From NCBI GenBank assembly GCA_040954595.2, contig CM082585.2, positions 2,758,902 to 2,822,901 of the forward strand: a stretch of DNA of 64,000 nucleotides. The letters are read 5' to 3'. The position numbers and the translations under genes were made by a program. A model generated the notes under the pieces. It saw nothing but the letters and a program-made list of their open reading frames with translations, did no database searches and was not told where the DNA came from. The stretch is from Balanoglossus misakiensis. Lineage: Eukaryota > Animalia > Hemichordata. Below are positions 1 to 63,441 of the stretch, piece by piece; position 1 is the first letter of the stretch, and every line of letters begins with the position of its first letter.

Positions 1-10
1 CTTAACAGCA

Positions 11-6655: not shown

Positions 6656-6746
6656 ACACATGCATGTAACTACATGTACTTTGTGATATTCAACTTTGTA
6701 TTTTTTGAAGTTTTCATTGTATTCAAACTTTTTCCAAAGGGGGAGG

Positions 6747-23400: not shown

Positions 23401-26400
23401 GCGTCAACATTAACCAGGCCAGACAGTATCCTGACCAGAGTGGACAGTATCCTGTCCATTAATTTTGAGTGTCTGGTGGGGTCAACCTTTGCGTCAACAA
23501 TAACCAGGCCAGACAGTATCCTGGCCAGAGTGGACAGTATCCTGTCCATTAATTTTGAGTGTCAACATTAACCAGGCCAGACAGTATCCTGGCCAGAGTG
23601 GACAGTATCCTGTCTATTAATTTTGAGTGTCTGGTGGGGTCAACCTTTGCGTCAACATTAACCAGGCCAGACAGTATCCTGGCCAGAGTGGACAGTATTT
23701 TGCCCATGAATTTCGAGTGTTTGGTGGGGTCAACCTTTGCGTCAACATTAACCAGGCCAGACAGTAACCAGGCCAGAGTGGACAGTATCCTGCCCATGAA
23801 TTTCGACTGTTTGGTGGGGTCAACCTTTGCGTCAACATTTACCAGGCCTGAAAGTAACCAGGCGGAGAGTGGACAGTATTCTGCCCATGAATTTCAAGTA
23901 TTTGGTGGGGTCAACTTTTGCGTCAACATTAACCAGGCCAGACAGTATCCTGGCCAGAGTGGACAGTATTCTGCCCATGAATTTCAAGTGTTTGGTGGGG
24001 TCAACCTTTGCGTCAACATTAACCAGGCCAGACAGTAACAAGGCCAGAGTGGACAGTATCCTGCCCATTAATTTCGAGTGTTTGGTTGGGTCAACCTTTG
24101 CGTCAACATTAACCAGGCCAGACAGTAACAAGGCCAGAGTGGACAGTATCCTGCCCATTAATTTCGAGTGTTTGGTGGGGTCAACCTTTGCGTCAACATT
24201 AACCAGGCCAGACAGTAACAAGGCCAGAGTGGACAGTATCCTGCCCATTAATTTTGAGTGTTTGGTGGGGTCAACCTTTCCGTCAACATTAACCAGGCCA
24301 GACAGTAACCAGACCAGAGTGGACAGTATTCTGCCCATTAATTTCGAGTGTTTGGTGGGGTCAACCTTTGCGTCAACATTAACCAGGCCAGACAGTAACA
24401 AGGCCAGAGTGGACAGTATCCTGCCCATTAATTTCGAGTGTTTGGTGGGGTCAACCTTTGCGTCAACATTAACCAGGCCAGACAGTAACAAGGCCAGAGT
24501 GGACAGTATCCTGCCCATCAATTTCGAGTGTTTGGTGGGGTCAACCTTTGCGTCAACATTAACCAGGCCAGACAGTAACCAGGCCAGAGTGGACAGTATC
24601 CTGCCCATTAATTTCGAGTGTTTGGTGGGGTCAACCTTTGCGTCAACATTAACCAGACCAGACAGTATCCTTGCCAGAGTGGACAGTATCCTGCCCATTA
24701 ATTTTGAGTGTCTGGTGGGGTCAACCTTGCGTCAACATTAACCAGACCAGACAGTATCCTGGCCAGAGTGGACAGTATTCTGCCCATTAATTTCGAGTGT
24801 TTGGTGGGCTCAACCTTTGCGTCAACATTAACCAGACCAGACAGTATCCTGGCCAGAGTGGACAGTATCCTGTCCATTAATTTTGAGTGTTTGGTGGGGT
24901 CAACCTTTGCATCAACATTAACCAGGCCAGACAGTAACCAGGCCAGAGTGGACAGTATCCTGTCCATTAATTTTGAGTGTCTGGTGTGGTCAAACTTTGC
25001 GTCAACATTAATCAGACCAGACAGTATCCTGGCCAGAGTGGACAGTATTCTGCCCATTAATTTCGAGTGTTTGGTGGGGTCAACCTTTGCGTCAACATTA
25101 ACCAGACCAGACAGTATCCTGGCCAGAGTGGACAGTATCCTGCCCATTAATTTTGAGTGTCTGGTGGGGTCAACCTTGCGTCAACATTAACCAGACCAGA
25201 CAGTATCCTGGCCAGAGTGGACAGTATTCTGCCCATTAATTTCGAGTGTTTGGTGGGCTCAACCTTTGCGTCAACATTAACCAGACCAGACAGTATCCTG
25301 GCCAGAGTGGACAGTATCCTGTCCATTAATTTTGAGTGTCTGGTGGGGTCAACCTTGTGTCAACATTAACCAGACCAGACAGTAACCAGGCCAGAGTGGA
25401 CAGTATTCTGCCCGTTAATTTCGAGTGTTTGGTGGCGTCAACCTTTGCGTCAACATTAACCAGACCAGACAGTATCCTGGCCAGAGTGGACAGTATTCTG
25501 CCCATTAATTTCGAGTGTTTGGTGGGGTCAACCTTTGCGTCAACATTAACCAGACCAGACAGTATCCTGGCCAGAGTGGACAGTATCCTGTCCATTAATT
25601 TTGAGTGTCTGGTGGGGTCAACCTTTGCGTCAACATTAACCAGGCCAGACAGTATCCTGGCCAGAGTGGACAGTATCCTGTCCATTAATTTTGAGTGTCA
25701 ACATTAACCAGGCCAGACAGTATCCTGGCCAGAGTGGACAGTATCCTGTCTATTAATTTTGAGTGTCTGGTGGGGTCAACCTTTGCGTCAACATTAACCA
25801 GGCCAGACAGTATCCTGGCCAGAGTGGACAGTATTCTGCCCATGAATTTCGAGTGTTTGGTGGGGTCAACCTTTGCGTCAACATTAACCAGGCCAGACAG
25901 TAACAAGGCCAGAGTGGACAGTATCCTGCCCATTAATTTCGAGTGTTTGGTGGGGTCAACCTTTGCGTCAACATTAACCAGGCCAGACAGTAACCAGGCC
26001 AGAGTGGACAATATCCTGCCCATGAATTTCGAGTGTTTGTTGGGGTCAACCTTTGCGTCAACATTAACCAGGCCTGAAAGTAACCAGGCGTAGAGTGGAC
26101 AGTATTCTGCCCATGAATTTCAAGTATTTGGTGGGGTCAACCTTTGCGTCAACATTAACCAGGCCAGACAGTATCCTGGCCAGAGTGGACAGTATTCTGC
26201 CCATGAATTTCAAGTGTTTGGTGGGGTCAACCTTTGCGTCAACATTAACCACGCCAGACATTAACAAGGCCAGAGTGGACAGTATCCTGCCCATTAATTT
26301 CGAGTGTTTGGTTGGGGCAACCTTTGCGTCAACATTAACCAGGCCAGACAGTAACAAGGCCAGAGTGGACAGTATCCTGCCCATTAATTTCGAGTGTTTG

Positions 26401-29400
26401 GTGGGGTCAACCTTTGCGTCAACATTAACCAGGCCAGACAGTAACAAGGCCAGAGTGGACAGTTTCCTGCCCATTAATTTTGAGTGTTTGGTGGGGTCAA
26501 CCTTTGTGTCAACATTAACCAGGCCAGACAGTAACCAGACCAGAGTGGACAGTATTCTGCCCATTAATTTCGAGTGTTTGGTGGGGTCAACCTTTGCGTC
26601 AACATTAACCAGGCCAGACAGTAACAAGGCCAGAGTGGACAGTATCCTGCCAATTAATTTCGAGTGTTTGGTGGGGTCAACCTTTGCGTCAACATTAACC
26701 AGGCCAGACAGTAACAAGGCCAGAGTGGACAGTATCCTGCCCATCAATTTTGAGTGTTTGGTGGGGTCAACCTTTGCGTCAACATTAACCAGGCCAGACA
26801 GTAACCAGGCCAGAGTGGACAGTATCCTGCCCATCAATTTTGAGTGTTTGGTGGGGTCAACCTTTGCGTCAACATTAACCAGGCCAGACAGTAACCAGGC
26901 CAGAGTGGACAGTATTCTGCCCATTAATTTCGAGTGTGTGGTGGGGTCAACCTTTGCGTCAACATTAACCAGGCCAGACAGTAACCAGGCCAGAGTGGAC
27001 AGTATCCTGTCCATTAATTTCGAGTGTTTGGTGGGGTCAACCTTTGCGTCAACATTAACCAGGCCAGACAGTAACCAGGCCAGAGTGGACAGTATCCTGT
27101 CCATTAATTTTGAGTGCTTGGTGGGGTCAACCTTTGCGTCAACATTAACCAGGCCAGACAGTATCCTGACCAGAGTGGACAGTATCCTGTCCATTAATTT
27201 TGAGTGTCTGGTGGGGTCAACCTTTGCGTCAACATTAACCAGGCCAGACAGTATCCTGGCCAGAGTGGACAGTATCCTGTCCATTAATTTTGAGTGTCAA
27301 CATTAACCAGGCCAGACAGTATCCTGGCCAGAGTGGACAGTATTCTGCCCATTAATTTCGAGTGTTTGGTGGGGTCAACCTTTGCGTCAACATTAACCAG
27401 ACCAGACAGTAACCAGGCCAGAGTGGACAGTATTCTGCCCATTAATTTCGAGTGTTTGGTGGGGTCAACCTTTGCGTCAACATTAACCAGGCCAGACAGT
27501 ATCCTGGCCAGAGTGGACAGTATCCTGTCTATTAATTTTGAGTGTCTGGTGGGGTCAACCTTTGCGTCAACATTTACCAGACCAGACAGTATCCTGGCCA
27601 GAGTGGACAGTATCCTGTCCATTAATTTTGAGTGTCTGGTGGGGTCAACCTTGTGTCAACATTAACCAGACCAGACAGTAACCAGGCCAGAGTGGACAGT
27701 ATTCTGCCCGTTAATTTCGAGTGTTTGGTGGGGTCAACCTTTGCGTCAACATTAACCAGACCAGACAGTATCCTGGCCAGAGTGGACAGTATTCTGCCCA
27801 TTAATTTCGAGTGTTTGGTGGGGTCAACCTTTGCGTCAACATTAACCAGACCAGACAGTAACCAGGCCAGAGTGGACAGTATTCTGCCCATTAATTTCGA
27901 GTGTTTGGTGGGGTCAACCTTTGCGTCAACATTAACCAGACCAGACAGTATCCTGGCCAGAGTGGACAGTATTCTGCCCATTAATTTCGAGTGTTTGGTG
28001 GGGTCAACCTTTGCGTCAACATTAACCAGACCAGACAGTATCCTGGCCAGAGTGGACAGTATTCTGCCCATTAATTTTGAGTGTCTGGTGGGGTCAACCT
28101 GTGCGTCAACATTAACCAGGCCAGACAGTATCCTGACCAGAGTGGACAGTATCCTGTCCATTAATTTTGAGTGTCTGGTGGGGTCAACCTTTGCGTCAAC
28201 ATTAACCAGGCCAGACAGTATCCTGGCCAGAGTGGACAGTATCCTGTCCATTAATTTTGAGTGTCAACATTAACCAGGCCAGACAGTATCCTGGCCAGAG
28301 TGGACAGTATACTGTCTATTAATTTTGAGTGTCTGGTGGGGTCAACCTTTGCGTCAACATAAACCAGGCCAGACAGTATCCTGGCCAGAGTGGACAGTAT
28401 TCTGCCCATGAACTTCGAGTGTTTGGTGGGGTCAACCTTTGCGTCAACATTAACCAGGCCAGACAGTAACCAGGCCAGAGTGGACAGTATCCTGTCCATT
28501 AATTTTGAGTGTTTGGTGGGGTCAACCTTTGCGTCAACATTAACCAGGCCAGACAGTATCCTGACCAGAGTGGACAGTATCCTGTCCATTAATTTTGAGT
28601 GTCTGGTGGGGTCAACCTTTGCGTCAACATTAACCAGGCCAGACAGTATCCTGGCCAGAGTGGACAGTATCCTGTCCATTAATTTTGAGTGTCAACATTA
28701 ACCAGGCCAGACAGTATCCTGGCCAGAGTGGACAGTATCCTGTCTATTAATTTTGAGTGTCTGGTGGGGTCAACCTTGCGTCAACATTAACCAGACCAGA
28801 CAGTATCCTGGCCAGAGTGGACAATATTCTGCCCATTAATTTCGAGTGTTTGGTGGGCTCAACCTTTGCGTCAACATTAACCAGACCAGACAGTATCCTG
28901 GCCAGAGTGGACAGTATCCTGTCCATTAATTTTGAGTGTCTGGTGGGGTCAACCTTGTGTCAACATTAACCAGACCAGACAGTAACCAGGCCAGAGTGGA
29001 CAGTATTCTGCCCGTTAATTTCGAGTGTTTGATGGGGTCAACCTTTGCGTCAGCATTAACCAGGCCAGACAGTATCCTGGCCAGAGTGGACAGTATCCTG
29101 TCCATTAATTTTGAGTGTCTGGTGGGGTCAACCTTTGCGTCAACATTAACCAGGCCAGACAGTATCCTGGCTAGAGTGGACAGTATCCTGTCCATTAATT
29201 TTGAGTGTCAACATTAACCAGGCCAGACAGTATCCTGGCCAGAGTGGACAGTATACTGTCTATTAATTTTGAGTGTCTGGTGGGGTCAACCTTTGCGTCA
29301 ACATTAACCAGGCCAGACAGTATCCTGGCCAGAGTGGACAGTATTCTGCCCATGAATTTCGAGTGTTTGGTGGGGTCAACCTTTGCGTCAACATTAACTA

Positions 29401-32400
29401 GGCCTGAAAGTAACCAGGCGTAGAGTGGACAGTATTCTGCCCATGAATTTCAAGTATTTGGTGGGGTCAACCTTTGCGTCAACATTAACCAGGCCAGACA
29501 GTATCCTGGCCAGAGTGGACAGTATTCTGCCCATGAATTTCAAGTGTTTGGTGGGGTCAACCTTTGCGTCAACATTAACCAGGCCAGACAGTAACAAGGC
29601 CAGAGTGGACAGTATCCTGCCCATTAATTTCGAGTGTTTGGTTGGGGCAACCTTTGCGTCAACATTAACCAGGCCAGACAGTAACAAGGCCAGAGTGGAC
29701 AGTATCCTGCCCATTAATTTTGAGTGTTTGGTGGGGTCAACCTTTGTGTCAACATTAACCAGGCCAGACAGTAACCAGACCAGAGTGGACAGTATTCTGC
29801 CCATTAATTTCGAGTGTTTGGTGGGGTCAACCTTTTCGTCAACATTAACCAGGCCAGACAGTAACAAGGCCAGAGTGGAAAGTATCCTGCCAATTAATTT
29901 CGAGTGTTTGGTGGGGTCAACCTTTGCGTCAACATTAACCAGGCCAGACAGTATCCTGGCCAGAGTGGACAGTATCCTGCCCATTAATTTTGAGTGTCTG
30001 GTGGGGTCAACCTTTGCGTCAACATTAACCAGACCAGACAGTATCCTGGCCAGAGTGGACAGTATACTGTCTATTAATTTTGAGTGTCTGGTGGGGTCAA
30101 CCTTTGCGTCAACATTAACCAGGCCAGACAGTATCCTGGCCAGAGTGGACAGTATTCTGCCCATGAATTTCGAGTGTTTGGTGGGGTCAACCTTTGCGTC
30201 AACATTAACCAGGCCAGACAGTATCCTGGCCAGAGTGGACAGTATTCTGCCCATGAATTTTGAGTGTCTGGTGGGGTCAACCTTTGCGTCAACATTAACC
30301 AGGCCAGACAGTATCCTGGCCAGAGTGGACAGTATTCTGCCCATGAATTTCAAGTATTTGGTGGGGTCAACCTTTGCGTCAACATTAACCAGGCCAGACA
30401 GTATCCTGGCCAGAGTGGACAGTATTCTGCCCATGAATTTCAAGTGTTTGGTGGGGTCAACCTTTGCGTCAACATTAACCAGGCCAGACAGTAACAAGGC
30501 CAGAGTGGACAGTATCCTGCCCATTAATTTCGAGTGTTTTGTTGGGGCAACCTTTGCGTCAACATTAACCAGGCCAGACAGTAACAAGGCCAGAGTGGAC
30601 AGTATTCTGCCCATTAATTTCGAGTGTTTGGTGGGGTCAACCTTTGTGTCAACATTAACCAGGCCAGACAGTAACAAGGCCAGAGTGGACAGTATTCTGC
30701 CCATTAATTTCGAGTGTTTGGTGGGGTCAACCTTTGTGTCAACATTAACCAGGCCAGACAGTAACCAGACCAGAGTGGACAGTATTCTGCCCATTAATTT
30801 CGAGTGTTTGGTGGGGTCAACCTTTGCGTCAACATTAACCAGGCCAGACAGTAACAAGGCCAGAGTGGACAGTATCCTGCCAATTAATTTCGAGTGTTTG
30901 GTGGGGTCAACCTTTGCGTCAACATTAACCAGGCCAGACAGTAACCAGGCCAGAGTGGACAGTATCCTGTCCATTAATTTCGAGTGTTTGGTGGGGTCAA
31001 CCTTTGCGTCAACATTAACCAGAGCAAACAGTAACCAGACCAGAGTGGACAGTATGCTGCCCATTAATTTTGAGTGTTTGGTGGGGTCAACCTTTGCGTC
31101 AACATTAACCAGAGCACACAGTAACCAGGCAGAGTGGACAGTATCCTGTCCATTAATTTCGAGTGTTTGGTGGGCTCAACCTTTGCGTCAACATTAACCA
31201 GACCAGACAGTATCCTGGCCAGAGTGGACAGTATCCTGTCCATTAATTTTGAGTGTCTGGTGGGGTCAACCTTTGCGTCAACATTAACCAGACCAGACAG
31301 TATCCTGGCTAGAGTGGACAGTATCCTGCCCATTAATTTTGAGTGTCTGGTGGGGTCAACCTTTGCGTCAACATTAACCAGGCCAGACAGTATCCTGGCC
31401 AGAGTGGACAGTATCCTGTCCATTAATTTTGAGTGTCTGGTGGGGTCAACCTTTGCGTCAACATTAACCAGGCCAGACAGTATCCTGGCCAGAGTGGACA
31501 GTATCCTGTCCATTAATTTTGAGTGTCTGGTGGGGTCAACCTTTGCGTCAACATTAACCAGGCCAGACAGTATCCTGGCCAGAGTGGATAGTATCCTGCC
31601 CATTAATTTTGAGTGTCTGGTGGGGTCAACCTTTGCGTCAACATTAACCAGGCCAGACAGTATCCTGGCCAGAGTGGACAGTATCCTGTCCATTAATTTT
31701 GAGTGTCTGGTGGGGTCAACCTTTGCGTCAACATTAACCAGGCCAGACAGTATCCTGGCCAGAGTGGATAGTATCCTGCCCATTAATTTTGAGTGTCTGG
31801 TGGGGTCAACCTTTGCGTCAACATTAACCAGGCCAGACAGTATCCTGGCCAGAGTGGACAGTATCCTGTCCATTAATTTTGAGTGTCTGGTGGGGTCAAC
31901 CTCTGCATCAACATTAACCAGGCCAGATAGTAACCAGGCCAGAGTTGACAGTATTCTGCCCATTAATTTCGAGTGTTTGGTGGGGTCAACCTTTGCGTCA
32001 ACATTAACCAGGCCAGATAGTAACCAGGCCACAGTCGACAGTATCCTGTCCATTAATTTTGAGTGTCTGGTGGGGTCAACCTTTGCGTCAACATTAACCA
32101 GGCCAGATAGTAACCAGGCCAGAGTCGACAGTATCCTGTGCATTAATTTTGAATGTCTGGTGGGGTCAACCTTTGCGTCAACATTAACCAGGCCAGATAG
32201 TAACCAGGCCAGAGTGGACAGTATTCTGCCCATTAATTTTGAGTGTTTGGTGGACAACCTTTGCGTCAACATTAACCAGAGCACACTGTAACCAGGCCAG
32301 AGTGGACAGTGTCCTGTCCATTAATTTTGAGTGTTTGGTGGGGTCAACCTTTGCGTCAACATTAACCAGGCCAGACAGTAACCAGGCCAGAGTGGACAGT

Positions 32401-33580: not shown

Positions 33581-33997
33581 AGACAAATTACACGAATGCA
33601 TAGCAAAAATTATTTTACCCAACCTGACACTAATAAATTACCCAATGATTTTAAATTTCTTATTATTACACCCCAATTAATCATCATACCTTTGTAATAT
33701 TAACACCATTTATACACATCCCATAATGTTTATACCATCAAGTTAATACCATTTTATTATTATTATACCACCAAAACCTTGTGTTACCCATTTTTTATTA
33801 TTACACCATTGATGTTTACACCCTTATATATTATACCGGTATTTACCCTCTGTACATGTACAGTTTTTATTTACCACGTGGCATTACCCTCGTTTTTATA
33901 GTATTTTAATTACTTGTCATACCCTTGAAACCATAATATTATACCCATGCAGACAGTTTTGTTACAGTACCCTTGTGCACACTGTTTTATTAGTCAT

Positions 33998-34175
33998 CAT
34001 ACACCAACCCTTCACCATTCCATTACATTGTACCATTTCTTATTAGCCTAACCTATTCATACACCAACCCTTCACCATTCCGTTAGATTATACCATTTTT
34101 TATTACCCTAACATATTCATACACCAACCCTTTACCATTCCCTCAGATTAAACCATTTTTATTAACCTAACCTAT
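33998..34175. repeat. 60-bp tandem repeat x3
   Basis: catacaccaaccctt(c/t)accattcc at 33998, 34058 and 34118. Confidence 0.88.
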
Positions 34176-34329
34176 TGACAGCATCCCTCTGGTTATGATA
34201 TTGTTATCTGGCGCAGCGTTGTTGTAGATATTGATTAGACTCCCTCCGACGATGATATTACCAATGAACCTATTGAAAAAAAAAGAATGAATATTATTAA
34301 TTAGATCAGATCAACAAATCATGGCGTTG

Positions 34330-34880
34330 TTCATCCCTCTGGTCACAGAAGCATCGTCTGGCGTCGTTACAAGTTTAAGTTCATCCCTCCAGTACAGTAT
34401 TAGGTGGCGGCGGCGTTACAAGTATTAAGTTCATCCCTCCAGTACAGTATTAGGTGGCGGCGGCGTTACAAGTATTAAGTTCATCCCTCCAGTACAGTAT
34501 TAGGTGGCGGCGTCGTTACAAGTATTAAGTTCATCCCTCCAGTACAGTATTAGGTGGCGGCGTCGTTACAAGTATTAAGTTCATCCCTCCAGTACAGTAT
34601 TAGGTGGCGGCGTCGTTACAAGTATTAAGTTCATCTCTCCAGTACAGTATTAGTTGGCGGCGTCGTTACAAGTATTAAGTTCATCCCTCCAGTACAGTAT
34701 TAGGTGGCGGCGTCGTTACAAGTATTAAGTTCATCCCTCCAGTACAGTATTAGGTGGCGGCGTCGTTACAAGTATTAAGTTCATCTCTCCAGTACAGTAT
34801 TAGGTGGCGGCGTCGTTACAAGTATTAAGTTCATCTCTCCAGTACAGTATTAGGTGGCGGCGTCGTTACAAATATTACAC
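34330..34880. repeat. 50-bp minisatellite, about 10 near-identical copies plus diverged flanking copies
   Basis: aagttcatccctccagtacagtattaggtggcggcgtcgttacaagtatt repeated head to tail. Confidence 0.95.
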
Positions 34881-37563
34881 TCCCTCTAGCAGCAGTGTTA
34901 CCAATGAACCTAATGTAAAAAAAGAATGAAATTATTTTAAAAAACTGATTAGATCAAGTCATCATCATTGATAAAAAAACAATGATAAGAAGAAATCATT
35001 TAAAAATTAAAGCTGCCAGCACCATTGGTGGGGCCCAAACAGTTCCCATGGTTACCAGGGTTAGTATGCCAAGGCTGTATTCTGCTGTGAATACTAAGAT
35101 ATAGGAAAGCTGGTCAAAGGTTACCCTGGGGTCACTGAAAATCGCGTCAGGGACACTGTGGTCTCATTTAGTGATTACACTAAAAGAAGTCTACACAGGA
35201 GTACAGACAGACAGACACACACATAGAGGCAATAAAATCCGTTTAAATTCCCCCCTAGCCTTTGCCGTCGCCCAAAGAAGTCGACTCATCAATTCTAGAA
35301 AAGTAGACTTTTTGCCAAAAATGATGAAAAAATGCATAAAAATAGAATATTCAAACTATTTGTTCAAAAAAATATAGGACTGTATGTGGTTGACATAAGG
35401 TACTTGCATACCAATTGTCAAATCAATCTGACCAGTGGTTGTCGAGTTTCTGAGTTTTGACCAATTTCAAATTGTCCCAGCTAATTTGCATTAATTCAAA
35501 AAGTTTAACTGAATATGGCTGCCAGGTCAAATAACTGATTTGAATTTCAAGGTGCACACTCGTTGGCAAGGACAGCTGTGACAAATTTGAGAAGCCTAGG
35601 TGTGGCAGCTTTTCAGAGCCAGGTGTGCAAAAAAAATCCAGGGAATGGGGCCCAAGCTCCTGAAAAAAAACAGCACAATACCAAAAAGGGACTGATATTA
35701 CTAACAAAATGTAAGCCTGTAAGAAGTCAAAAGCTGCATATCTTTTTACCACCTTGTGTCAGTACTAAGCAATAAGACTTTTTATAGAGTTGCTGTTTTA
35801 GTGGTCTTTGCAGATGCTAGAGATTAAAAAAGAATCCTACAAGTTAAGATTTTCAGAAACAATGATAGCTATATCAATTACTGTTTGAAAACATGTGATG
35901 TTCACCACCTTGTTTTCAGAAAAGTATTTAAATAAATGTTTTTCCAAAGAGTTAAAACAAAGATTGGCAGCCATCTTGAACTTCAAAAAACTGCAACAAT
36001 ATCCCATATGCAACAAATATGCAAATTATACTATTTGACACCTGACTTTAGGGCAAGGGGTTTCAGAGAAGAGGACTACTCTTCAGACTCAGACATAAAA
36101 TAATAATGCAATATTCAGCAGAATTTAAAAAAAATGACTAAGATCACTCAGGGACAATTCACAACAAAGATCGAAACAATTAGACGTACCAATTTTAAAG
36201 ATCATTATGAAAACTTTACAGATTCGGTCATAATGTAAACAAATAATATCACCCCTGTGGACATGACAATCAGATATGCATATTCTAATATGATTTTAAG
36301 TCCAAATAAAAAGGCAACTGCCCCCAAAATACAAAATTGCAAGTTATGTCACAAACCTCATGGAGATACATACTAAATTTCAGAGAAAATTCCCCCCCCC
36401 CCCAAAAAAAAATATGCAAATTTCACCACATTTTGAAGAAACAACTTGCGTTATCCCTAGAAACTTGCATAGTCAAAGAAATCCTACAAGCTTACTTCTT
36501 CTTCCAAAGACAGCAAAAACTCGTTTCAAACTACAAATATGCAGAATTCAACACAATTTGAACACGCATTACTTCGCTACCCCCAGAAACCTGCATACCA
36601 AATTTGAAAGCACTTGCACCAGTGATTTCAGAAAAGAAAAAGTGTTGACAGACATAGGATGACTGAACATCTATCTACCTGTCTGATAACATTTGCAGTG
36701 CTAAGAGCAGAGCTAGAGATTGGTGTTGCCTTTTCACATTTTAAATCATCACACTTTGCTTCTCTAAGCTACTATTCTGCTCTGCTTGAGAAATGACTTG
36801 GGACCATTTTTGACAAACAATAGTCACTTATCTTCCTGAGTTTATAGTACAATGTACCTACACTGTTTTAGTAATGTACTGATTATGTTCAGACTTTTTC
36901 TTGTGTCTGCATATGTCTTTATTACAGAGGAATAATCTATCGGTTGTCATTTCTCTGTTTACTCAGAAATAAACTAGTCTGGGTTGAAACAGTAGAAATT
37001 TTAAAATTTTCATACCTATTTCAGAAGAGAGTTCAAAACCAATACCTTTGGGAAGCATTAAATCAAATTTGCTGGGTAACTGTGGATTTATAACTTTGGC
37101 TAATTACAGTGCTAACTCACACTGGATGAGTCGATGGTATTTTTAGATTCAGATCAAAATATAAAGAACAGTACAAAGTGGCAAAATGGGATTGTTTTGT
37201 GAAAGCAAGTGGCTTGCATTGAGAGACAATAGGGTACTATACATAGGCCAAGTTGCTCAAAAAGCATGGAGAAATTACTTTTGATGAATGCATGGATGGG
37301 ATGCGTTTCATTACTGTCAGTATTAATTGTCTTTTTTCGTGGTCCAAGCAATACCTTCTAAATTGAAACCAGTTCTATCACTGCTTTTATCACAGTTTAG
37401 TTAACTTGAAATAAATATGGGTTATATCATTACTCATACCATTGGTGTTGTCTTATCATTTTTCACTGGAGATAGGAAGGCGAGATTGCGACTTACAGCA
37501 TTAGATTATTACGTTTTGAACCCTTCTGTTATGACGGAAATAGTTTCAGCCTATACTATTTAA

Positions 37564-38281: not shown

Positions 38282-41200
38282 TTAATATAAGAATCCTTTG
38301 GAATCAGTCTGCATTTTCTCGGCAGATTTTTATTGAAAATAATAGTTTTATCGACAGTCACAAGCTGAGTACAACCAGAGTTTTGATCGGATTGTTTATT
38401 TACAAAAAATATGGAAAAGTCCAAACAAGCATAAAAAATAGAAAATTTATGATATGAGCTCAAAACATGCAGGACTTTGAAGTCGTCATGCATACAAATT
38501 TATAAAGCAATTTGCCCAGTAGTTGATGAGTTTAGACCAATTTAACGTTTTTCAAGCTCATTTGCACATTTTTGGCCATGACAACTTAAACAAAATTATA
38601 TCTACAGAACAGCCTTTACACTCCAAATATTGCGGCTATAAGTTTTTGTTGTGGATGGACATAGATACAGAAGCAGCTGAATCGCATAAGGTCCCAGTGG
38701 TATACACATATATTGAATGGGGCCTACAAAGATTGACTAAATTTACAATCAATCTGACAAGTAGTTTCAAACAATTTTTGATGAAAAGTTGCAAAATTTC
38801 CCAAAAGTTTCACCAAATTTCACACCAACAGTTTACTTAGGTTTACACCCCTCGCCTGAGTAGGAACATACCTTCCAAATTTCAAAGCTATCTGACAAAA
38901 AGTTTCAGAAAAACGATTTTCGACTCGGAATGGCAAAAATTGACCAAATATTACAAATATGCAAAACTGGCAACAATTTGCGCCAAACTAACTAAGATCA
39001 CAAAATGAAGGAAAAAAATCTCCAATGAGTTGAAATGAGAAATCCATGTACACAAACATTTGTGAAATACTTCCCCTATACCCTTAATACAATTAGGTAC
39101 CCTATTCAAATAGTCATAATCAACCCACTTCTTGATCGTGGAGGACAGCACTACATAAAGGTTACCAAGTGGAGAATATTCATCCGACAAGTGATTATTA
39201 GAGGTGTGCATAATAAACCAACGGTGGATTGCTGCCCCAATAAAATTGAGAGGGTGAATTAACTATTTGATTAAAAACAGTAACATATAAACTGGCTATG
39301 AAGCATGTATACAACAAGTTGTGGTTACCGAAAAAAGGTACTTGACGGGGCCGCAAGGGTCTTTAACATAGGGTCCAAGGTCTTCTCCCCCTCCTGCACA
39401 GCCTAATGATGACCATTTAAGACAGTCCACCTGTGAATCAAATATATGTGCATGTTTATAAGTAACCAATCACAAACTTGCATTATGTCATACTAATAAG
39501 TCAAAATATGCAGAACATGGTATAATGTAGGGTCAAGGCAGTGTTGTGACAATGCATAACAATAGAATACTTAGCAGATAAATCTGTGAAACAGCAATTT
39601 TGAAACTCCATTTACATCTGACTAAGTAATAGTACTGCAGAGTATAGAAGCTCCATATGGGTATTCTCTTACATGGCAATCAGGTGACAAATGATATTTA
39701 TGTGTAAACAACAAAAACATGCACACAGACTTAATAACACTGTACCTAAAACATACCCACCCATGGACGGCAAACAAATAATTAAATTCAAGGCGCCTAT
39801 ATACAATTATAGCTATGGGTAATTCTGCCAATTCTAAATGTGTCCAAACTGAATTTATGTCCAGTTCATTCACCTCATCATAATCACATTACAGGAAATC
39901 AATAATGCCCTAAAAAAGCAAATATAGATGAACTCATGCTTACCAGAAAGTAGTCTTAACCAAGCTTCAGCGCACAGGAGAACGAGAAACCCTGGACCAG
40001 TTGAAATTGCGACAATCATGGCTTCCATCTGTGAATGAAATATGCATAGCAGTTAGTAACAAATCATAAACCTGTAGGTCGCAATATATGGGATGTGATA
40101 TAAGGGAGTGTTGAGAATATACTTCCCAAGGAATTGAGGTGGCTGTAGGATTTCCAGGGGGCCATCGATTTTTTTACATGAGAAATTGGGGGGGGGGGGC
40201 ACATAACACCAGACTTTTAGGGATGACTATGAAAAAATAGCGTCAAGGACACTGTGGTCCCATTTGAGGATTACACGGAATTAGTTATAGACAAGAATAA
40301 AAATCACATGCGACACTTGCAAGCAGATATGACCTAACCATATATAAATATGAAAATGTAAAAAAATTAACAAGGACCATGCCCAATAGACTGTCATGTG
40401 TCATGGCAGTCTTACAAGTGATGCAAGAAAAATTTATGTTTGACCAAAAATTGTGTGTAGAAACACACATGACAAGCAACTTCTTACAGTCAGCCCTTGG
40501 ACAGACTGACAGACATTCAATAGCTAATGGTCTCTGTAACAGCTGGCCTATTAAGTTATGTAAACATGTAGTGTAAACAGTCTCGGGGTACAAATACCTT
40601 GTAAACAGTAACTTTCAATGCAACTGGACATGAGTTTAGAAGATTTGCTAACCAAAATCAATAATTTGCAAAAAACTCGCTAAATATTTGTTCAAAAGTG
40701 GCAAAAACACATACAAGCAAATATCACCAAAATTGTTCAAAATCCTAACTTCAATCACCACAAGGAACATGCCTGCCAAAAAGCGAATCAATCAAAGCAA
40801 TCTGACAAGCGGTTTCAGAGGGGAAAAATAACAAAAAAATTATCATCAAAATTATAAATATGTAATTTTTTGCAATAATTTGAACAAAACCATGGTTGCT
40901 CAGACAACCTATAAGAAGCTTCATACTAAATTTCAAAGAAGTAGGCCGATCACTTTCAGAAATGAAGATTTTTTACCAATAATGTTGAAAAATTAATATA
41001 AACAAATGCATCAAAAATAGAAAATCAATATTAGCTCTAAACATACAGGACTGTTTGAGGTAGACATAAGGTACCTGCATACCAATTTCCAAATTAATCT
41101 GATTAGTAGTTGGTGAGTTTGAGTTTTGACCCATTTCAAATTTTTCCACCTAATTTGCATATTTTTTAAAGTCAATGACAACTCCATTTGAAGAAACTCC

Positions 41201-48535: not shown

Positions 48536-51500
48536 ACTATTAGCCCACAACATATAGAATTGTGTAAGGTTAACGTAAGGTACATGCATACCAATTTTCA
48601 ATTTTGAAAGCAATTTGCCCAGTAGTTGTCGAGTTTCAGAGTTGACGAATTAGACACTTTCCCAGTTAATTTGCATATTTTGGCAATGACAACTTCATTT
48701 AGACAAACTCCCATCTACCCCTGTGCCTGCATCTCCACACTAAATATCAAGGTTTCCAAGTGTTTGATGTTGACGGACATACAAACATCCATACATACAT
48801 CAGGTGCAACTGATCCAATAAGGTCCCATGGTATAAATACAAATACCAAATGGGACCTAACAATTCTGATAAAATGCCTACATAGCTAGTGTAAAAACAC
48901 TTGTACCTTCAACGCCCTTGGACAACACATTTTTGTAACTTCCCCAGATCAATGGCTAATATGACTTTCCAAAGGCGACTAAAATTTGGGGGTGGGTGGG
49001 TGGGGGGGGGGGCCTGATGCAAATTCTGATACATGTACTTCATGATTTAGAGATATGGTGAAAATCCTGTCAACCAAATTACAGGGAAATCAGATTTTCC
49101 ATGTAAAATCATATCACCCAAAAATGTCAAAAGTGTCGAAAATAATTTTGAAACAAAAAGTCTACTCAAAATCATACCAAAATTTAAAGTTTAATGCAGT
49201 TGGGCAAGTAATTTGAGAATGAGGAAATTTACAAAATAATTTATAAATAATTTACAAATGCCGCACACAAACTTACAATTACTACCATGGTACCAGCAGA
49301 GACATTAGCATCGAGCAATCCCCAAGATATACATGACATGGTCTAATTACAAATATTGAATATGTAAAATAAGTACACTTCCAGTCTTTCAGTACAGTCA
49401 GCTGCTTGTGAACAATTTGCAGGTAGGTATTTCATCAAATTTACAGACCAAGTCATGCCTATACAATTCTCCCCTGAAATACGTTTTAAGCTACCCTAAG
49501 TGAGTGATGAAAATCTCATATTGTCGACAATTTCAAGATGGCCGATTTTTGCCATGTTAAAGAAATGGGAGTTCATAAGCTAAAGTGATAATGGGTCATT
49601 CTTGAACTTTTTAACAGAAAAAATAACAAAATGTGAAAAAAGTTTAATGAGTTTAATATGCTAACTACAGAGAACGACATGTTTGACCAAAGCATGAAAT
49701 ACAAAAAATGTATCATTTCTTCCATCTCTTACTACAGTGGGTTGTGGACTTTTCGCCCAGAATGCAATGTGATTTGACCCCCTAGCGCATAGTGAAAACC
49801 TATTTAAGGCAGCCAGAATGTTCTGCACTGTATGACGGGAAACATTTGTAAAGTCATGGCTAGCGTGGGCTGGTAAGTTTATGGGACTCTCCATGATAAC
49901 CGATTGTGGCTTGCCACCACCATAATTTTGAAAGGGCGACTTCACTGTTTGATGGGAAAAGGTAGCATTTACAAACAAGCTATGGAGCATGTATACAGCA
50001 AGTTGTGCTTACCGGAAAGCGGTCTTGGAAAAGGCCTAGGTATTCTCTTCCTCCTCCGGCATACGTTGAAATGCTGTGTTTAAGACTGTGAATCAAATAT
50101 ATGCAAATATTAATTAGTAACCAATCAACTTTGTTTTAGAATTATGTGGGCCATACTAATTAGTGAAAATATGCAAAACATGGTATAATGTACGGTCAGA
50201 CTGTGCTGCGATAATGTACAACAGTGGAATACGTCGATCTTAAAACTCCATTTACATCAGTACTGCAGTAAAGTGGTCCACATGGGTATATACCCCAAAC
50301 ATTGCAATTAGGTGACAACTGAAACTGACATGATATCAGATTCTGTAAATGACAGAAGGTGTACACGCACTTTGACATCTATGTAACACTGTACAATGAT
50401 TTCTTTGTTTGTTGTGAAAATGAAACTTGCATTTGATCCATCTCACTTTTCATACAACTGATTAGCATAAGAATGTACATTGTTGGCAATTATAAAACAT
50501 TTATTTAAGTATAGAAAAGTAAGCCTTAAAATTTAAACTTTAAATATCAGTATACTAAAATGTTTCAAACGTGGCTGTCAGTATATCTCATGGCGTGGTG
50601 GCGGAAGTAGATGTTGTTACCAGGGAAGACATATTGAACACAGACAAGCCCAATAGTCGCTTGGTGATTTTTTATCTTTATAAAGATTCTCAAAACTTTT
50701 TGTGCATTTAGTAGCTTTGAGCAAGTTTCTGGTACTGATCAGATTTCCGAATTCAGGACTGCGCTTCTCTGGCTTTGGTCACCATCAGCCAATGTGATCT
50801 TACGCACACATTTTTGAAAAAAAAATCCAGCCTGTTTGTGTCATGATTTATATTTTTCTTTGCGGCCTAAGGTATTGTTTTATTTCACTCTAAACAACAT
50901 TACTTTCCTTCATGTGTCTATACATAATAATAGATCTCTTAGCCAGTTTGATTAAGCATGGTGTTGGACTAGCACACTTTCAGCCAAAGTTACGGTATCT
51001 CCCTGTGTATTGATATGGGAGTAATTTCTAGCTATATGGTTAAGGAAATGCATCCAAATTTAATTTATGCATCACATGAAGATTTGAACTTGACCATTTA
51101 ATTCATGTCATCACGATCATATCACAGGCAATCGAGGCCAGAATTCGAAGGGAAAAAAAAAGTATTGATAACTGGAATGTGTAAATTAGTTCGTAGACAT
51201 ACAAATTGCTTCCTATTGCTTCGGTTGCAACGCCCGATAAAAGCAAATATATAGCAAGTCATGCTTACCATTGAGCGGTCTTAAACTCGCCCCAGACGAG
51301 GAAGAGAATCCTGAGTTGAAATGCAGGCAATCTCAGGCAGCATCTGAGAATCAAATAGACCTAGAAGTTAGTAACCAGTCATAGTAGCTCTAAGTTGGAT
51401 GTAAAAGTCTAAGTTGGGTGTACCAACTCACCTTGTTAACAGTAACTTTCAAAGAAACTGGGCAATTGGTTCAAGAGAAGATTTGCTATCCAAAAACAAA

Positions 51501-55492: not shown

Positions 55493-57726
55493 ATACTACA
55501 TGCCAAGGGTGACTAGAATTTTTTTTTTTGGGGGGGGGGGAGGGGGCGATGCAATTCTGATACATGTACTTCATGATTTAGAGATCTGGTGAAAATCCTG
55601 TCAACCGAATTACAGGGAAATCAGATTTTCCATGGAAAATCATTTTACCAAAAAATTTCAAAAAGTGTAGAAAATAAATTTGAAACAGAAAGCCTACTCA
55701 AAATCATACCAAAATTTAAATTTTAATGCAGTTGGGCAAGCAATTTGAGAATGAAGAAACTTAGAAATAATTTATAAATTGAAAATAATTTACAAATGCT
55801 GCACACAAACTTACAATCACTACCATATTACTGTACAAGTTAAAAGGACATTGTACCAGCAGAGACATTGCGATCGAGCAATCCCCAAGATATACATGAC
55901 ATGGTCTAATTACAAATATTGAATATGTAAAATAAGTACACAACACTTCCAGTCTTTCAGTACAGTCAGCTGCTTGTGAACAATTTGCAGGTAGGTATTT
56001 CATCAAATTTACAGACCAAGTCATGCCTATACAATTCTCCCCTGAAATACGTTTTAAGCTACCCTAAGTGAGTGATGAAAATCTCATACGGTCGACAATT
56101 TCAAGATGGCCGATTTTTGCCATGTTAAAGAAATGGGAGTTCATATGCTAAAGTGATGATGGGTCATTCTGGAACTTTTTAACAGAAAAAATAACAAAAT
56201 GTGAAAAACAGTTTAATGGGTTTAATATGCTAACTACAGAGACAGACATGTTTGACCAAAGGAAGTCATGAAATACAGTAAACATATCATTTCTTCTATC
56301 TCTTACTACAGTTGGTTGTGAACTTTTCGCCCAGAATGCAATGGGATTTGACCCCCTAGCGCAAAGTGAAAACCTATTTAAAGCAGCCAGAATTTTCTGC
56401 ATAGTATGACGGAAACATTTGTAAAGTCATGGGTAGCATGGGTTGGCAGGTTTATGGGACCCTGCTCATGTTCCCTCGAATAAAACATGATACATGTTTG
56501 GTGACTTATTATTCTGTATTTTGTCATATTTTCAGATAAATCCCTATCAATCAGTCATATTTGTTCGGCCTTGCTATACAGCGAAATATAAATCTTGTTG
56601 ACTGAAATTGTTGAGGATAGTGTTACATAAAGGTTACCCATTGGAAAATATTAAAATGATTATTAGTGGTGTCCAACTCTTCATGATAACCAGTTGTGGC
56701 TTGCCACCACCATAATTTTGAAAGGGCGACTTCACTGTTTGATGGGAAAAGGTAGCATTTACAAACAAGCTATGGAGCATGTATACAGCAAGTTGTGCTT
56801 ACCGGAAAGCGGTCTTGGATCAGGCCTAGGTATTCTCTCCCTCCTCCGGCATACGTTGAAATGCTGTGTTTAAGACTGTGAATCAAATATATGCATATTA
56901 ATAAGTAACCAATCAACCTTGCTTTAGAATTATGTGGGCAATACTAAATAGTGAAAATATGCAAAACATGGTATAATATAGGGTCAGAAAAAATATCCAG
57001 CCTGTTTGTGTCATGATTTACATTTTTATTTCTGACCTAAATTATTGTTTTTGTCACTTTAAACAACATTACTCATTACTGTCCTTCATAAGTCTAATAT
57101 GATAATAGACTTCTTAGCCAGTTTGATTAAGCATGGTGTTGGACTAGCGCATGTTCAGCCAAAGCTACAGTATCTCCCTGTGTATTGGTATGGGAGTAAT
57201 TTTAGCTATATGTTTAAAGAAATGCATCCAAATGTATTCTATGCTCCATGTGAAGATTTGAACTTGTGAGTTGTCCATTTAATTCATGTCATCACTACCA
57301 TATCACAGGCAATCAAGGCCAGAATTCGAAGGGGAAAAAACAAGTATTGAAAGCTGGAATGTGTAAATTAGTTCGTAGACATACATTGCTTCCTATTGTA
57401 CCGTTTGCAACGCGTGATAAAAGCAAATATATAGCAAGTCATGCTTACCATTGAGCGGTCTTAAACTCGCCTCGGACGAGGAAGAGAATCCCGAGTTGAA
57501 ACGCAGACATTTTCAGGCAGCATCTGTGAATCAAATAGACATAGAAGTTAGTAACCAGTCATAGTAGCTCTGCGTGGCAGGGCTGCGTGTTAACAGCTAT
57601 GCCATAGCTGACACTGGTAGCTTATAACAGTCTCGATGGTGCCGAAAATCTCCCCAACAACAAAACTAATTCTGGTCAGTTTATTCGCTATCGCTTTGCC
57701 TTAAAAGTTATACTGTAGTGTGTTAC

Positions 57727-58149
57727 CACAGGGGGCTCTCCCTCCGCGATTTTATTGTTTGTTTGTTTGTTGTTGTTGTTGTTGTTGTTGTTGATGATTG
57801 GCATTATAAACAAATACATATTTCTTTATTAATAAATATGGTTTGTTGACATGTAAGTGTTAGGGAAAATTCAACGGTTAGCATTAGTGTTGGCACTTTT
57901 TTCGATCCACGGCCCCGGGCATCACTAAGCCACGAAGAGAGGGTGATGCTGGCCGTGGATCGCAATAATGCCAACACTAATACTAACAGTTGAATATACC
58001 ATAACCTGTCAAATATACCCTAATAACCTAACCCTTACATGTCAACAAACCATATTTATTGACAAAGAAATATGTATTTGTTTATAATGCCAATCAACAA
58101 CAACAACAAACAAACACACAATAAAATTGCGGAGGGAGAGCCCCCTGTG
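57727..58149. mobile_element. Fold-back MITE with CA...TG ends and 7-bp TSD (P-element-like)
   Basis: CACAGGGGGCTCTCCCTCCGC...GCGGAGGGAGAGCCCCCTGTG; GTGTTAC at 57720-57726 and 58150-58156; nearly the whole element is an inverted repeat. Confidence 0.85.
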
Positions 58150-61100
58150 GTGTTACGGTACCACCTGCCCCACAATGACAAAGCTGACTCGAGGCCACGA
58201 ACGACGTACAATTTACTCGCACGGTGTAAAACAACGCATGAATTCCATGCGACTGTGAGTTTACTGTTCGGCGCTGTAACGCTTCCCAAAGTCAGAATTT
58301 CGATGTTGGGAAGACACTGTCGCCCTACCACTACCAGTTTTTGCAAGAAGGAGTGTACATGTACTTGTAAAATAACATTAAATGCCATGCTTACCAGAGA
58401 AACGACTTCATCAAGCATGGAGGCGACCGGGACCTCCATGCTTGATGAACGTCGAAGCTGCAATGATTTTTCAAATGCAATGGTCAGCGGTACGAGAACG
58501 AGGCAGCACCTGCTCGTCAATTATGCAAATTAGTTACTACTCAATCAGAATCTTGCTTTCGCATTCTAATTAGTCAAAGTATGCAGTGCAACGTTTGTGT
58601 GCGGGTGGAGAATGCGCCTCGCCAACTGATGAATTCTCTGTCACGGCGTTCTTTGGAAGTGCGATTATGTAACCGATTATCTCATTAGGGACATAGATAA
58701 TATATTTTGTCTTCTTCAATTTGTTTGTACTACGAAAACAATTGCGAAACGAATAGCAAGCGCTTACGCTATGAAACGTAAATAAATATCAGTCATGGCC
58801 ATGTAGAAACGGAACGTCAATCCGCATTTGTCAAAAAATAATAGAAAAGACAAAGAAGCTGAGGGGAATGACCTCTCCGTTCTGACCTATCTGGGGAAGG
58901 CCTATTGCAATACGCAATATGTCAGATCATGCTACCATCCGCCATTCTGATTGGACGAGAGCTCAATCCATCGATACGAAAGTACTCAATAGAGCACTGC
59001 TGAAACTGGCCCTGAACTAATCGCATGCAACAGGGAAAACGCGACCTTTCAAATCAAATAAATACAAAAAATACAGCCAATGAATTTACGGCCGGCCGGT
59101 TTATTTCTTAACTGCTCTATAGGAATTGTTGTCACTGCCATGGACCACTTCGCGGATAGCATAACACAGGGTGTTGTGGGATAGTTTGCGTTCTGAGCGC
59201 GTGCGTTAGCCATGCAGTAGACGCTATGTTGAACGCAAATTATACCATCATGCATTGCAGATACCCTATCCGCGTAGTGGTCTATGCACGATGCATGTCT
59301 TGTCAGTGCGCACTCGACAAATTGGACCGTTTCTATAAAAAAATATGAACTGTGACTTTTGATTTTATTGAGAAATGTCTCTCGAATTAAACCATGTAAC
59401 GTAAATCAAGGAAATGTATTCTGCTAAAGTTGCTCCTGACGGGTTCGCTGAAACATTGTGTTATTGGTAAAATACGTCAAGTGTAAAATATTGAGTTACC
59501 TAATATGATAAAATATCAGATTTATGTGTTTAATCAAGATAGGCCTCTCTTCATATGTTTCATTTATTTGGTTTGAATAAAAGTTATCTGATTCAGTTTC
59601 ATGAAGTATACACGGATTAAATGTTTATCCACTGTAGTGCCACTGAAATGGCTTTCACGTTTGAGACTTCGGGCGGTAATCTTATATTTACTTTCTTCAT
59701 TTCTATTGGAGTAGACTACACCGGGGTCGACCTAAAATATCTATAAGCAATGCGCAAAGGGAGTATTTCAGCCGTGATGACCGGACGATGTCGGACAAAG
59801 TCTACAACTTAATACACGATCACCTCCAATTTGCATATGTCCATAAATGGCTAAACTTGCGTATCCTAGTGTTCTAAAGAACAAATGGTGGCGCTCTTAT
59901 TGTCGCGTGTGCCACCTCCTGAATATTTGTGATTGGCTGTATCTCAATTTGCCATGGTAACTGTAGCTAAATTTGCATAGGTTACCGTATACCTTTAAGG
60001 CACGTCAAGCGTATGTCCTTGTTGGGCTGTCTGACAGGAACGAATCGAGACCCACCGCACAGTCACGCAATAATGAAATCCACATCGCCAAAAACGATGT
60101 TTCACTAGACTCGGGTACATGCAACTATCTCATGCCATTTACAGAATTGAACACCCCAGGCAATGTTACGTGTTGCTCCATGACTGTTGCTCCATGACCA
60201 ACCAAACAGCAAACAACAAACTCATGTCCAAACCAATGACGGTCGCAACTCATTGCATTAAACAATATAGATGGGGATCCCAAAGAATAATTCAAATATA
60301 TTTGCAGAATTGCCACGCAAGTCGAGCATATTGTCCAAATTTAAGCACTCTGCAACTGAAACATAAAACCCAAGCTTTTTACAATACAGGAATTAAAAAT
60401 TCTGATTGAATTAATGCCAACATAAAACGAAAAAAGACAACTCACAAAATGTATATGTAGTGTTTCATGTAGTGTTTTGATCTCAAGAAGACATGAAAAA
60501 ATCGTCGGGGGAAAAGCAGGTGAGAACACCACCTCATTTTTGGGATATGAAATAAAAGTCTATTTTACGGAGACACCTGGTAAAAAGTCCACCCTAGTCT
60601 CAATTTTCCAGACCCCTCTGGGATAGTCGAGTAGTCCATCCCCATGAAACTGCATATTTTAAAATAGCCAAAATGAGTCAATGGGGCATTTTTTCATCCT
60701 ACCTCAACCTTGCTAAGAGTTTCCGTGCCAGTCACCTGCAAAAATTAAATTTACCACGGACAAATTGAAATACAGCCAATCGAAAAAAGTGCGCCACCAC
60801 ATGGTCATTTGAAGACTTTGATGCTCTCTTCTGGCCGTAACCGCATGTGATCCGGAATAAAATTGAGCCTTGATCGCGTTTTTTATTTTATTTTCACCAC
60901 CAACGAAAATCTACGACGGCCCAACCGCAGATTATTGCTGCTCCATACAACAACCGGCTTATACTGTACATAAGTTTTGTGTTCTGGTGGCATTTGCGGG
61001 TCTGAGACGTCATTTCTAGAAGGCCCTATTCGTTTTATACCAATAACTTTTACCACCCATGCTGGATTTTTTACGTTTTCTTTGACGACGCTTGACCCTT

Positions 61101-63200: not shown

Positions 63201-63441
63201 CAGTGCACTGTGCAGTCGGTCGGTACACTCTGCTGGTGTATACAAACGATCGTGGCGACAGAATCTCTCCCTGGGACGGCCTTACACAAATTTAATCGAT
63301 TGTCTAACAATTTTACTGCGACTTGTTGTCACGTCTTATACATTTCGTTGACCGGTGGAATATAGAGGTTCAGTCGTCACGCTGAACTGGCTCGAAACCA
63401 TTCCCCACGCTGATTCGACTCTCGCGCCCGGGATATATGTC

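What the first reader, a model, noticed from the sequence alone, without database searches (positions are those of the whole stretch)
39329..40028. Diverged third module shows compensatory base changes
Seen: aligning B1 GGGATTCTCTTCCTCGTCCG with B3 GGGTTTCTCGTTCTCCTGTG, and A2 CGGAGGAGGAAGAGAATACC with A3 TGCAGGAGGGGGAGAAGACC, shows a C-G to G-C pair swap, several Watson-Crick to G.U changes, one G.G mismatch repaired and another gained elsewhere. The stem is also extended by GGTCCA/TGGACC. Between the two recent copies, an A/G difference in A and a C/T difference in B also keep pairing as G.U. These wobble pairs work on the minus strand, matching the splice-site orientation. Inference: selection acts on the duplex while the arm sequence diversifies, which could give different small-RNA targets.
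Basis: partly seen in the sequence, partly recalled or inferred. Interest (0 to 1): 0.75.

Follow-up and report, generated by a model that had tools for sequence, protein, structure and literature searches.

The report
Intron-split RNA hairpins, tandemly duplicated
In what looks like an acorn-worm genome, a duplicated gene segment carries pairs of exon-like pieces whose sequences are complementary and would fold into a hairpin once the intron between them is removed; the pairing has survived many mutations, so it is likely kept by selection, perhaps as a small-RNA precursor, but no RNA data could test this.

Summary
They lie in seven paralogous minus-strand exon-like units (E0, B1/A1, B2/A2, B3/A3) with conserved splice signals; each B+A pair is predicted to splice into a hairpin with a 20-27 bp outer stem and an invariant 7-bp inner stem, the intron in the loop. 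Complementarity beats shuffles (at most 4 of 1000). Pairing kept across 10-11 arm differences is unlikely under neutral decay of a 20-30 bp inverted repeat (P 0.004-0.03), but not of a 50-85 bp one (0.04-0.14). Strict covariation is thin: the C-G to G-C swap depends on the alignment (indels sit there), one double change breaks a pair, and G.U versus A.C is 6:1 (P 0.06). B and A look like duplicates of one exon with an inverted centre. Sample DNA holds further diverged copies whose exons vary less than the intron, so purifying selection fits better than diversification. No joined ORF, no Rfam family, no RNA run, no targets testable. Best reading: an intron-split hairpin non-coding RNA, likely a small-RNA precursor (0.4). 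The scan noted loosely similar exon-intron hairpin repeats in two fungi (unchecked).

The parts
39944..40028 (-). Exon-like unit B3 (85 nt), 5' arm of module 3
   Evidence: Acceptor and donor match the family profile; branch-like CTAAC at -28, donor GTAAGC. Splicing inferred, not shown.
39972..39998 (-). B3 outer-stem arm (27 nt) including the GGTCC extension
   Evidence: Pair probabilities mostly 0.96-1.0 in the spliced fold; coordinates
39953..39959 (-). B3 inner-stem strand TTAAGAC, identical in all three modules
39431..39943 (-). GT-AG intron-like spacer of module 3 (513 nt), lying in the hairpin loop
   Evidence: ends 77-95% identical to module 1, interior near shuffle level
39329..39430 (-). 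Exon-like unit A3 (102 nt), 3' arm of module 3
   Evidence: donor GTAACC, no YTRAY at the usual branch distance
39372..39399 (-). A3 outer-stem arm (28 nt)
39417..39423 (-). A3 inner-stem strand GTCTTAA
51269..51343 (-). Exon-like unit B2 (75 nt); arm 51312-51293
50013..50085 (-). Exon-like unit A2 (73 nt); arm 50058-50039; B2-A2 intron 1183 nt
57449..57523 (-). Exon-like unit B1 (75 nt); arm 57492-57473
56803..56875 (-). Exon-like unit A1 (73 nt); arm 56848-56829; B1-A1 intron 573 nt
58395..58509 (-). Exon-like unit E0 (115 nt), same splice-flank family, with a self-contained 21-bp hairpin (58454-58403, 7-nt loop)
   Evidence: acceptor E 2.4e-9 and donor E 1.2e-5 against profiles that include it; fold z -5.5, 0 of 300 shuffles

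Best explanation
Three duplicated modules each carry two exon-like units with complementary 20-27 base arms, which are likely spliced into a non-coding RNA whose intron-split hairpin is likely kept by selection and predicted to be cut into ~22-nt small RNAs. Shown: coordinates, complementarity above chance, conserved splice-like flanks, no joined ORF, several diverged copies in the sample's DNA. Inferred: transcription and splicing; origin by tandem duplication of one exon with inversion of its central ~22 nt, then amplification of the B-intron-A block; RNA-level purifying selection that tolerates G.U wobbles and matched indels. Predicted only: RNase III (Drosha/Dicer) processing to a miRNA- or siRNA-like duplex whose seeds would differ between module 3 and modules 1/2.
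For: Seven units share acceptor and donor profiles and nothing else in the window does; flanks within 40 nt of the splice sites are 77-95% identical between module 3 and modules 1/2 against 54-63% deeper in the intron after B and 59-70% for shuffled controls. Spliced folds z -3.45, -3.14, -2.33 on the minus strand versus -1.67, -3.08, -1.08 on plus. 18 of 20 pairs in both old lineages despite 10-11 differences, cross-module combinations 16 of 20; neutral-decay P 0.004-0.03 for a 20-30 bp ancestral repeat. B2 and A2 share two direct anchors (10 and 9 nt) on either side of the arm, one at the same distance from the donor; 2 of 20000 shuffles do so, which points to a short (about 22 nt) inversion and so to the short-repeat null. 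G.U at 6 stem positions versus A.C at 1 (P 0.06; 0.016 if the edge A.C is left out). All 3 differences inside the 20-nt arms of modules 1 and 2 keep a pair. Both 5-nt B3-only segments pair with A3. Inner 7-bp stem unchanged in all three modules. In sample contigs 2 of 148 exon positions versus 37 of 573 intron positions differ among the 40 rows shown, none in the arms (Fisher P 0.007). Duplex size fits the 22 +/- 1 nt arms with about 19 pairs of miRNAs (PMC11701709 section 9); in module 1 a cut at exon position 29 gives -13/+11 geometry with basal UG; giant invertebrate miRNA hairpins can have a branched stem opposite a bulge at the dicing site (PMC12553114 passages), as module 1's predicted fold does.
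Against: No expression or splicing evidence at all. The neutral null is not rejected if the ancestral repeat was 50-85 bp (P 0.04-0.14 at kappa 2, up to 0.34 at kappa 4; estimated kappa 2.1). The swap column sits at indels in optimal alignments of both arms, and one of three two-sided changes breaks a pair. 13 variant rows were hidden; if 5 are exonic the exon-intron contrast is lost (P 0.13). Microprocessor geometry is inconsistent: lower stem 8 of 13 paired in module 1, not formed in module 2, -13/+15 in module 3; no CNNC at 16-18 or apical UGU in modules 1/2. The excised loop would be 51-59 nt, whereas only 1 of 13,788 deuterostome miRNA homologs has a loop over 50 nt (PMC12553114 figure legend). 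The outer stem is also predicted in the unspliced RNA (38 and 51 exon-exon pairs at p>0.5), so it need not depend on splicing. A3 lacks a YTRAY at the usual branch distance and has a weaker donor, so module 3 may be decaying.
Confidence: 0.4

Rival explanations
1. The spliced RNA is real and the duplex is selected, but it acts as a structural or protein-binding element of a long non-coding RNA (dsRNA-binding protein or ADAR site, or exon-exon pairing in the pre-mRNA that steers splicing), not as a small-RNA precursor.
For: All the selection evidence above; poor and inconsistent Microprocessor features; sequence-invariant inner stem; duplex predicted in the unspliced RNA too; exons conserved among extra copies.
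Against: Outer stem length of 20-22 bp in modules 1/2 and a pre-miRNA-sized 21-bp hairpin in the paralogous exon E0 match small-RNA dimensions; arm sequence has turned over by 25-30% between old modules, which a sequence-specific protein site would resist.
Confidence: 0.27
2. The complementarity is a neutral relic of a micro-inversion in a duplicated exon, carried along by segmental amplification and partly refreshed by DNA-level template switching between the arms.
For: B and A are direct paralogues with an inverted centre; neutral P 0.04-0.14 for a long ancestral repeat; three of the G.U changes are CpG-to-TpG (sequence); templated copying would explain the two B3-only 5-nt segments that pair; the whole 39-59 kb region is repetitive.
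Against: DNA-level copying gives WC pairs and no strand bias, yet wobbles are G.U on the splice-site strand 6:1; outside the two stems B and A are direct, not inverted, repeats, so a long ancestral repeat is unlikely; splice flanks are more conserved than intron interiors.
Confidence: 0.25
3. The units are protein-coding cassette exons and the complementarity is a by-product of purine-rich and pyrimidine-rich codons.
For: B1+A1 and B2+A2 are open in one frame for 49 codons, E0 and A3 are open alone, and E0, B1+A1 and B3+A3 all have lengths of 3n+1.
Against: No frame runs through the seven units, B3 has two stops in the frame of B1, consecutive modules are out of phase; 5 of the 6 codons that differ between B1 and B2 in that frame change the residue (translations); no Pfam match for 5 of 5 exon peptides; a nested second stem is not explained.
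Confidence: 0.06

Closest known systems
Plant intron-split miRNAs: miR444 family and miRtop14 (PMC11706861, passages read)
   Same: Intron between the 5' and 3' arms of a stem-loop; hairpin completed by splicing.
   Different: Here an animal; tandem, duplicated modules in what may be one transcript; no small-RNA or target evidence.
Inc-miRs, intron-interrupted miRNA hairpins in C. elegans (Zhang, Maniar, Fire 2011; paper not held, seen only as cited in PMC12219410)
   Same: Shows an animal Microprocessor can use a hairpin formed by splicing.
   Different: As cited there, the intron was introduced experimentally; this locus would be natural and multi-copy.
Drosophila hairpin RNAs, especially the tandem hp-CG4068 cluster (PMC10317233, passages read)
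   Same: Spliced non-coding transcripts, tandem hairpin copies, copy-number turnover, origin by local duplication.
   Different: Duplex here is a single 20-27 bp imperfect stem split over two exons; no homology to a target gene was found in the window; Dcr-2 pathway membership untested.
Giant invertebrate pre-miRNAs such as Daphniidae mir-375 (PMC12553114, abstract and passages read)
   Same: Long structured loop with a branch opposite a bulge next to the duplex.
   Different: Those are conserved miRNA families of protostomes; deuterostome loops are uniformly short; the words 'splic' and 'intron' occur there only in the references.

Membership tests
Canonical animal pri-miRNA | About 22-nt arms with about 19 base pairs | tested here: met
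   18 of 20 pairs in modules 1 and 3; criterion from PMC11701709
Canonical animal pri-miRNA | 30-35 bp stem with a lower stem of -13/+11 nt | tested here: inconclusive
   Module 1 -13/+11 with 8 of 13 paired; module 2 not formed; module 3 -13/+15
Canonical animal pri-miRNA | Short Dicer-excised loop, under 50 nt in deuterostomes | tested here: not met
   51 and 59 nt between the arms; precursors 94-123 nt; norm
Canonical animal pri-miRNA | Basal UG, apical UGU(G), CNNC | tested here: inconclusive
   UG at exon positions 15-16 in all three; UGU and CNNC only in module 3, and not in one register with the UG
Canonical animal pri-miRNA | Mature and star reads with 2-nt 3' overhangs | not testable with these tools
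   No RNA holder listed
Intron-split miRNA | Spliceosomal intron between the two arms | tested here: inconclusive
   GT-AG spacer with conserved splice-like flanks in 3 of 3 modules; splicing itself not observed
Intron-split miRNA | Splicing-dependent production of a mature small RNA | not testable with these tools
   No RNA data; the outer stem is predicted without splicing as well
Drosophila-type hpRNA | Tandem or multi-copy hairpins in a spliced non-coding transcript | tested here: inconclusive
   Three modules in the window and further diverged variants in sample contigs; transcript not observed
Drosophila-type hpRNA | Arms homologous to a target gene or transposon | tested here: inconclusive
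   With up to 5 mismatches the arms match only themselves in the window; no genome is held
Drosophila-type hpRNA | Dicer-2-dependent siRNAs | not testable with these tools
   Needs small-RNA sequencing and knock-down
Any Rfam family | Covariance-model match | tested here: not met
   0 at gathering score in the window; 0 at E<=1 in 38500-41000; only sub-threshold bacterial sRNA hits on the intronic foldback in 55500-61000. The spliced form was not scanned.
Protein-coding exon array | Continuous reading frame through the exons | tested here: not met
   Stops in all three frames of the seven joined units and of B3+A3

The most novel reading that the evidence does not exclude
A natural, amplified family of polycistronic intron-split small-RNA genes in a deuterostome: one ancestral exon was duplicated, a central micro-inversion made neighbouring exons complementary, and splicing now assembles each hairpin, so exon choice (B1 with A1 or A2, or skipping) could switch or recombine small-RNA duplexes, while old modules have drifted to new seeds.
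Probability: 0.2. Interest if true: 0.8.

Novelty: new variant of a known kind. Interest (0 to 1): 0.52.

Why it matters
Natural intron-split hairpin small-RNA genes are described from two plant families; none from an animal turned up in my searches. Genome-based miRNA finders that fold contiguous DNA would miss them. The locus also suggests a simple route to new hairpin RNAs (exon duplication plus micro-inversion), and the many copies in the genome make the selection claim directly testable. If it is neutral decay, it is a caution that three paralogues and a GGA repeat can mimic covariation.

Tried and rejected
No whole genome is held, so other copies could not be aligned. Run search: 3 runs listed, one sample, no RNA holder listed; this is no evidence on expression. 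Two metagenome pattern scans found 0 matches. Rfam: nothing relevant. Pfam: 0 families for the five exon peptides. Consensus folding of three modules was alignment-dependent (covariance term -1.0 or +1.6) and is not used. Whole-exon energy does not prefer cognate pairs between modules 1 and 2, so no co-adaptation of their basal stems is claimed. A resemblance of E0's 5' part to the B3 arm (score 23) is below an unrelated inverted control (27) and was dropped. Hammerhead, SECIS and IRE cores were looked for by eye from recalled consensus and not seen. The unspliced 700-nt module 3 folds no better than shuffles overall (z -0.31). Contig depths were not used as copy numbers; only variant classes and ratios at one place. 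The OB-fold-like ORF at 11537 had no homologue. Earlier-findings look-ups by place and by sequence were empty.

Full report
Observation. The pair table reproduces every change described: C-G versus G-C at position 18, G.G repaired at 16 and gained at 10, G.U at 4, 11, 12, 19 and 20 in module 3, and G.U-compatible A/G and C/T differences between modules 1 and 2. Exon-exon duplex energy is reached by 4, 0 and 0 of 1000 dinucleotide shuffles on the minus strand. The complementarity is real.

Anatomy. Profiles built from the splice-like flanks find exactly seven units, all on the minus strand: E0 58509-58395, B1 57523-57449, A1 56875-56803, B2 51343-51269, A2 50085-50013, B3 40028-39944, A3 39430-39329; the next best hits have E 0.3 or worse (the seven were in the training set). 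Acceptors end in CAG, six of seven donors are GTAAGC, six of seven have a YTRAY 24-32 nt upstream. Between module 3 and modules 1/2 the 35-40 nt next to the splice sites are 77-95% identical, while the intron further from the B donor is 54-63%, within the range of shuffled controls. Joining B to A by these sites gives hairpins with z -3.45, -3.14 and -2.33: an outer stem of 20-27 bp, an internal loop or three-way junction, and an inner stem whose 7 core pairs are identical in all modules, with the intron in the terminal loop. No frame runs through the units, B3+A3 has stops in all three frames, Pfam finds nothing for 5 of 5 exon peptides and Rfam nothing relevant. The host looks like a marine invertebrate; the best hit of a Gypsy integrase in the window is Ptychodera flava, a weak hint of an acorn worm.

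Origin (inferred). All seven units share acceptor and donor flanks. B2 and A2 also share two direct anchors of 10 and 9 nt that bracket the arm, the second 5 nt from the donor in both; 2 of 20000 shuffles give two shared 9-mers. The arm sits between these anchors in opposite orientation, as expected if one exon was duplicated and its central 22 nt or so inverted. The B-intron-A block was then duplicated with kilobases of flank (87-95% identity between modules 1 and 2, about 68-70% to module 3).

Is the duplex selected? With a perfect ancestral stem and two independent lineages, keeping 36 of 38 pairs with 10-11 differences has P 0.0002-0.0013 at kappa 2 and up to 0.005 at kappa 4 (the shared G.A position was dropped). 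Allowing for the choice of the best 20-pair window raises this to 0.004-0.03 for an ancestral repeat of 20-30 bp, 0.03-0.05 for 40 bp and 0.04-0.14 for 50-85 bp at kappa 2 (kappa estimated as 2.1). The direct anchors favour the short repeat. Neutral decay is strand-symmetric, so G.U and A.C should be equally common: counting distinct positions with a one-base bulge allowed gives 6 to 1 (P 0.06; 0.016 without the edge A.C), but only 5 to 1 in the ungapped register. Strict covariation is thin. Of three positions changed on both sides one is WC to WC, one WC to G.U and one breaks. The WC swap is alignment-dependent: optimal alignments put a 5-nt B3-only segment at that column, and a 3-nt gap in the GGA repeat of A scores as well as or better than a gap in the loop (27-29 versus up to 28 matches). 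Under that alignment the compensation is by indels: both 5-nt B3-only segments pair with A3, which either selection or DNA template switching could produce, or which modules 1/2 could have lost. There is no outgroup to tell.

More copies. Only one sample's DNA contigs hold the sequence. Laid on module 1 they show several diverged variant classes (contigs with 0, 6, 9, 13, 16 and 18 other letters), and at place 57101 about 94% of run X2's depth differs from the window's copy. Depth is not copy number, but the ratio at one place suggests some tens of copies. Among the 40 variant rows shown, 37 of 573 intron positions and 2 of 148 exon positions vary, none in the arms (Fisher P 0.007); 13 rows were hidden, and if 5 of them are exonic P is 0.13. 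This points to conservation rather than diversification of the arms among recent copies.

Mechanism. The best-fitting function is a small-RNA precursor assembled by splicing: the stem has miRNA-duplex dimensions (PMC11701709, section 9 part 1 read), the paralogous exon E0 carries a 21-bp hairpin on its own, and module 1 allows a -13/+11 cut with basal UG. Against it, lower stems and motifs are inconsistent across modules and the 51-59 nt loop would be exceptional for a deuterostome (PMC12553114, abstract and passages). I put this at 0.4, a selected duplex of another function at 0.27, a neutral relic at 0.25, coding exons at 0.06. The outer stem is predicted in the unspliced RNA too, so a role in the pre-mRNA stays open.

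Known systems. Intron-split miRNAs are described for miR444 and miRtop14 in plants (PMC11706861, passages); introducing an intron into a C. elegans hairpin does not block processing (PMC12219410, passages; the primary paper was not held). Drosophila hpRNAs are spliced, tandem and copy-variable (PMC10317233, passages). Nine literature searches (listings only apart from the papers named) showed no natural animal intron-split hairpin cluster and nothing on such RNAs in hemichordates; subscription papers and supplements were not seen. The scan's own notes include two fungal exon-plus-intron repeats with hairpins inside exons, unchecked here and not used as support.

Verdict. Observation confirmed; interpretation partly supported. 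A probably real, unusual non-coding RNA architecture with moderate evidence for selection on pairing, weak evidence for strict covariation, and no evidence yet on expression or targets. New variant of a known kind; interest 0.52.

Noticed in passing
window 58403-58454 (-): Exon-like unit E0 holds a near-perfect 21-bp hairpin with a 7-nt loop (z -5.5), the most pre-miRNA-sized structure at the locus; its basal extension would come from the next exon.
   Followed up: partly
window 57724-58136: About 410-nt foldback (MITE-like) in the E0-B1 intron; 185 pairs in a 460-nt fold.
   Followed up: partly
window 50200-50818: About 600-nt insertion in the B2-A2 intron (1183 nt against 573 and 513).
   Followed up: no
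window 58766-59090 (-): CCAAT boxes, a YY1-like word (recalled motif) and a GTAAGC donor upstream of E0; possible promoter and first exon, untested.
   Followed up: no
window 33750-34930 (-): Two copies of an acceptor-like site (about 34910 and 34270) with a 50-nt tandem array between them and six AATAAA signals downstream; possible terminal exon. The second copy reads as a RHIM-like peptide by recall, no Pfam match.
   Followed up: partly
window 17400-32400: 15-kb satellite with a 90-nt period (45-nt subunits), open on both strands over long stretches.
   Followed up: no
window 1-6700: Gypsy-type retrotransposon fragments; the integrase ORF's best hit is Ptychodera flava (380 bits against 292 for the next), a weak hint of an enteropneust host.
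   Followed up: partly
window 11537-11932 and 12901-13200 (+): Two ORFs that look OB-fold-like by eye; no homologue or Pfam match above cut-off.
   Followed up: partly
window 61421-63202: 892-nt tandem duplication at 99.7% identity.
   Followed up: no
run X1, table 7: GATCGATC loose ends suggest a proximity-ligation library (recalled signature), so its depths are biased.
   Followed up: no
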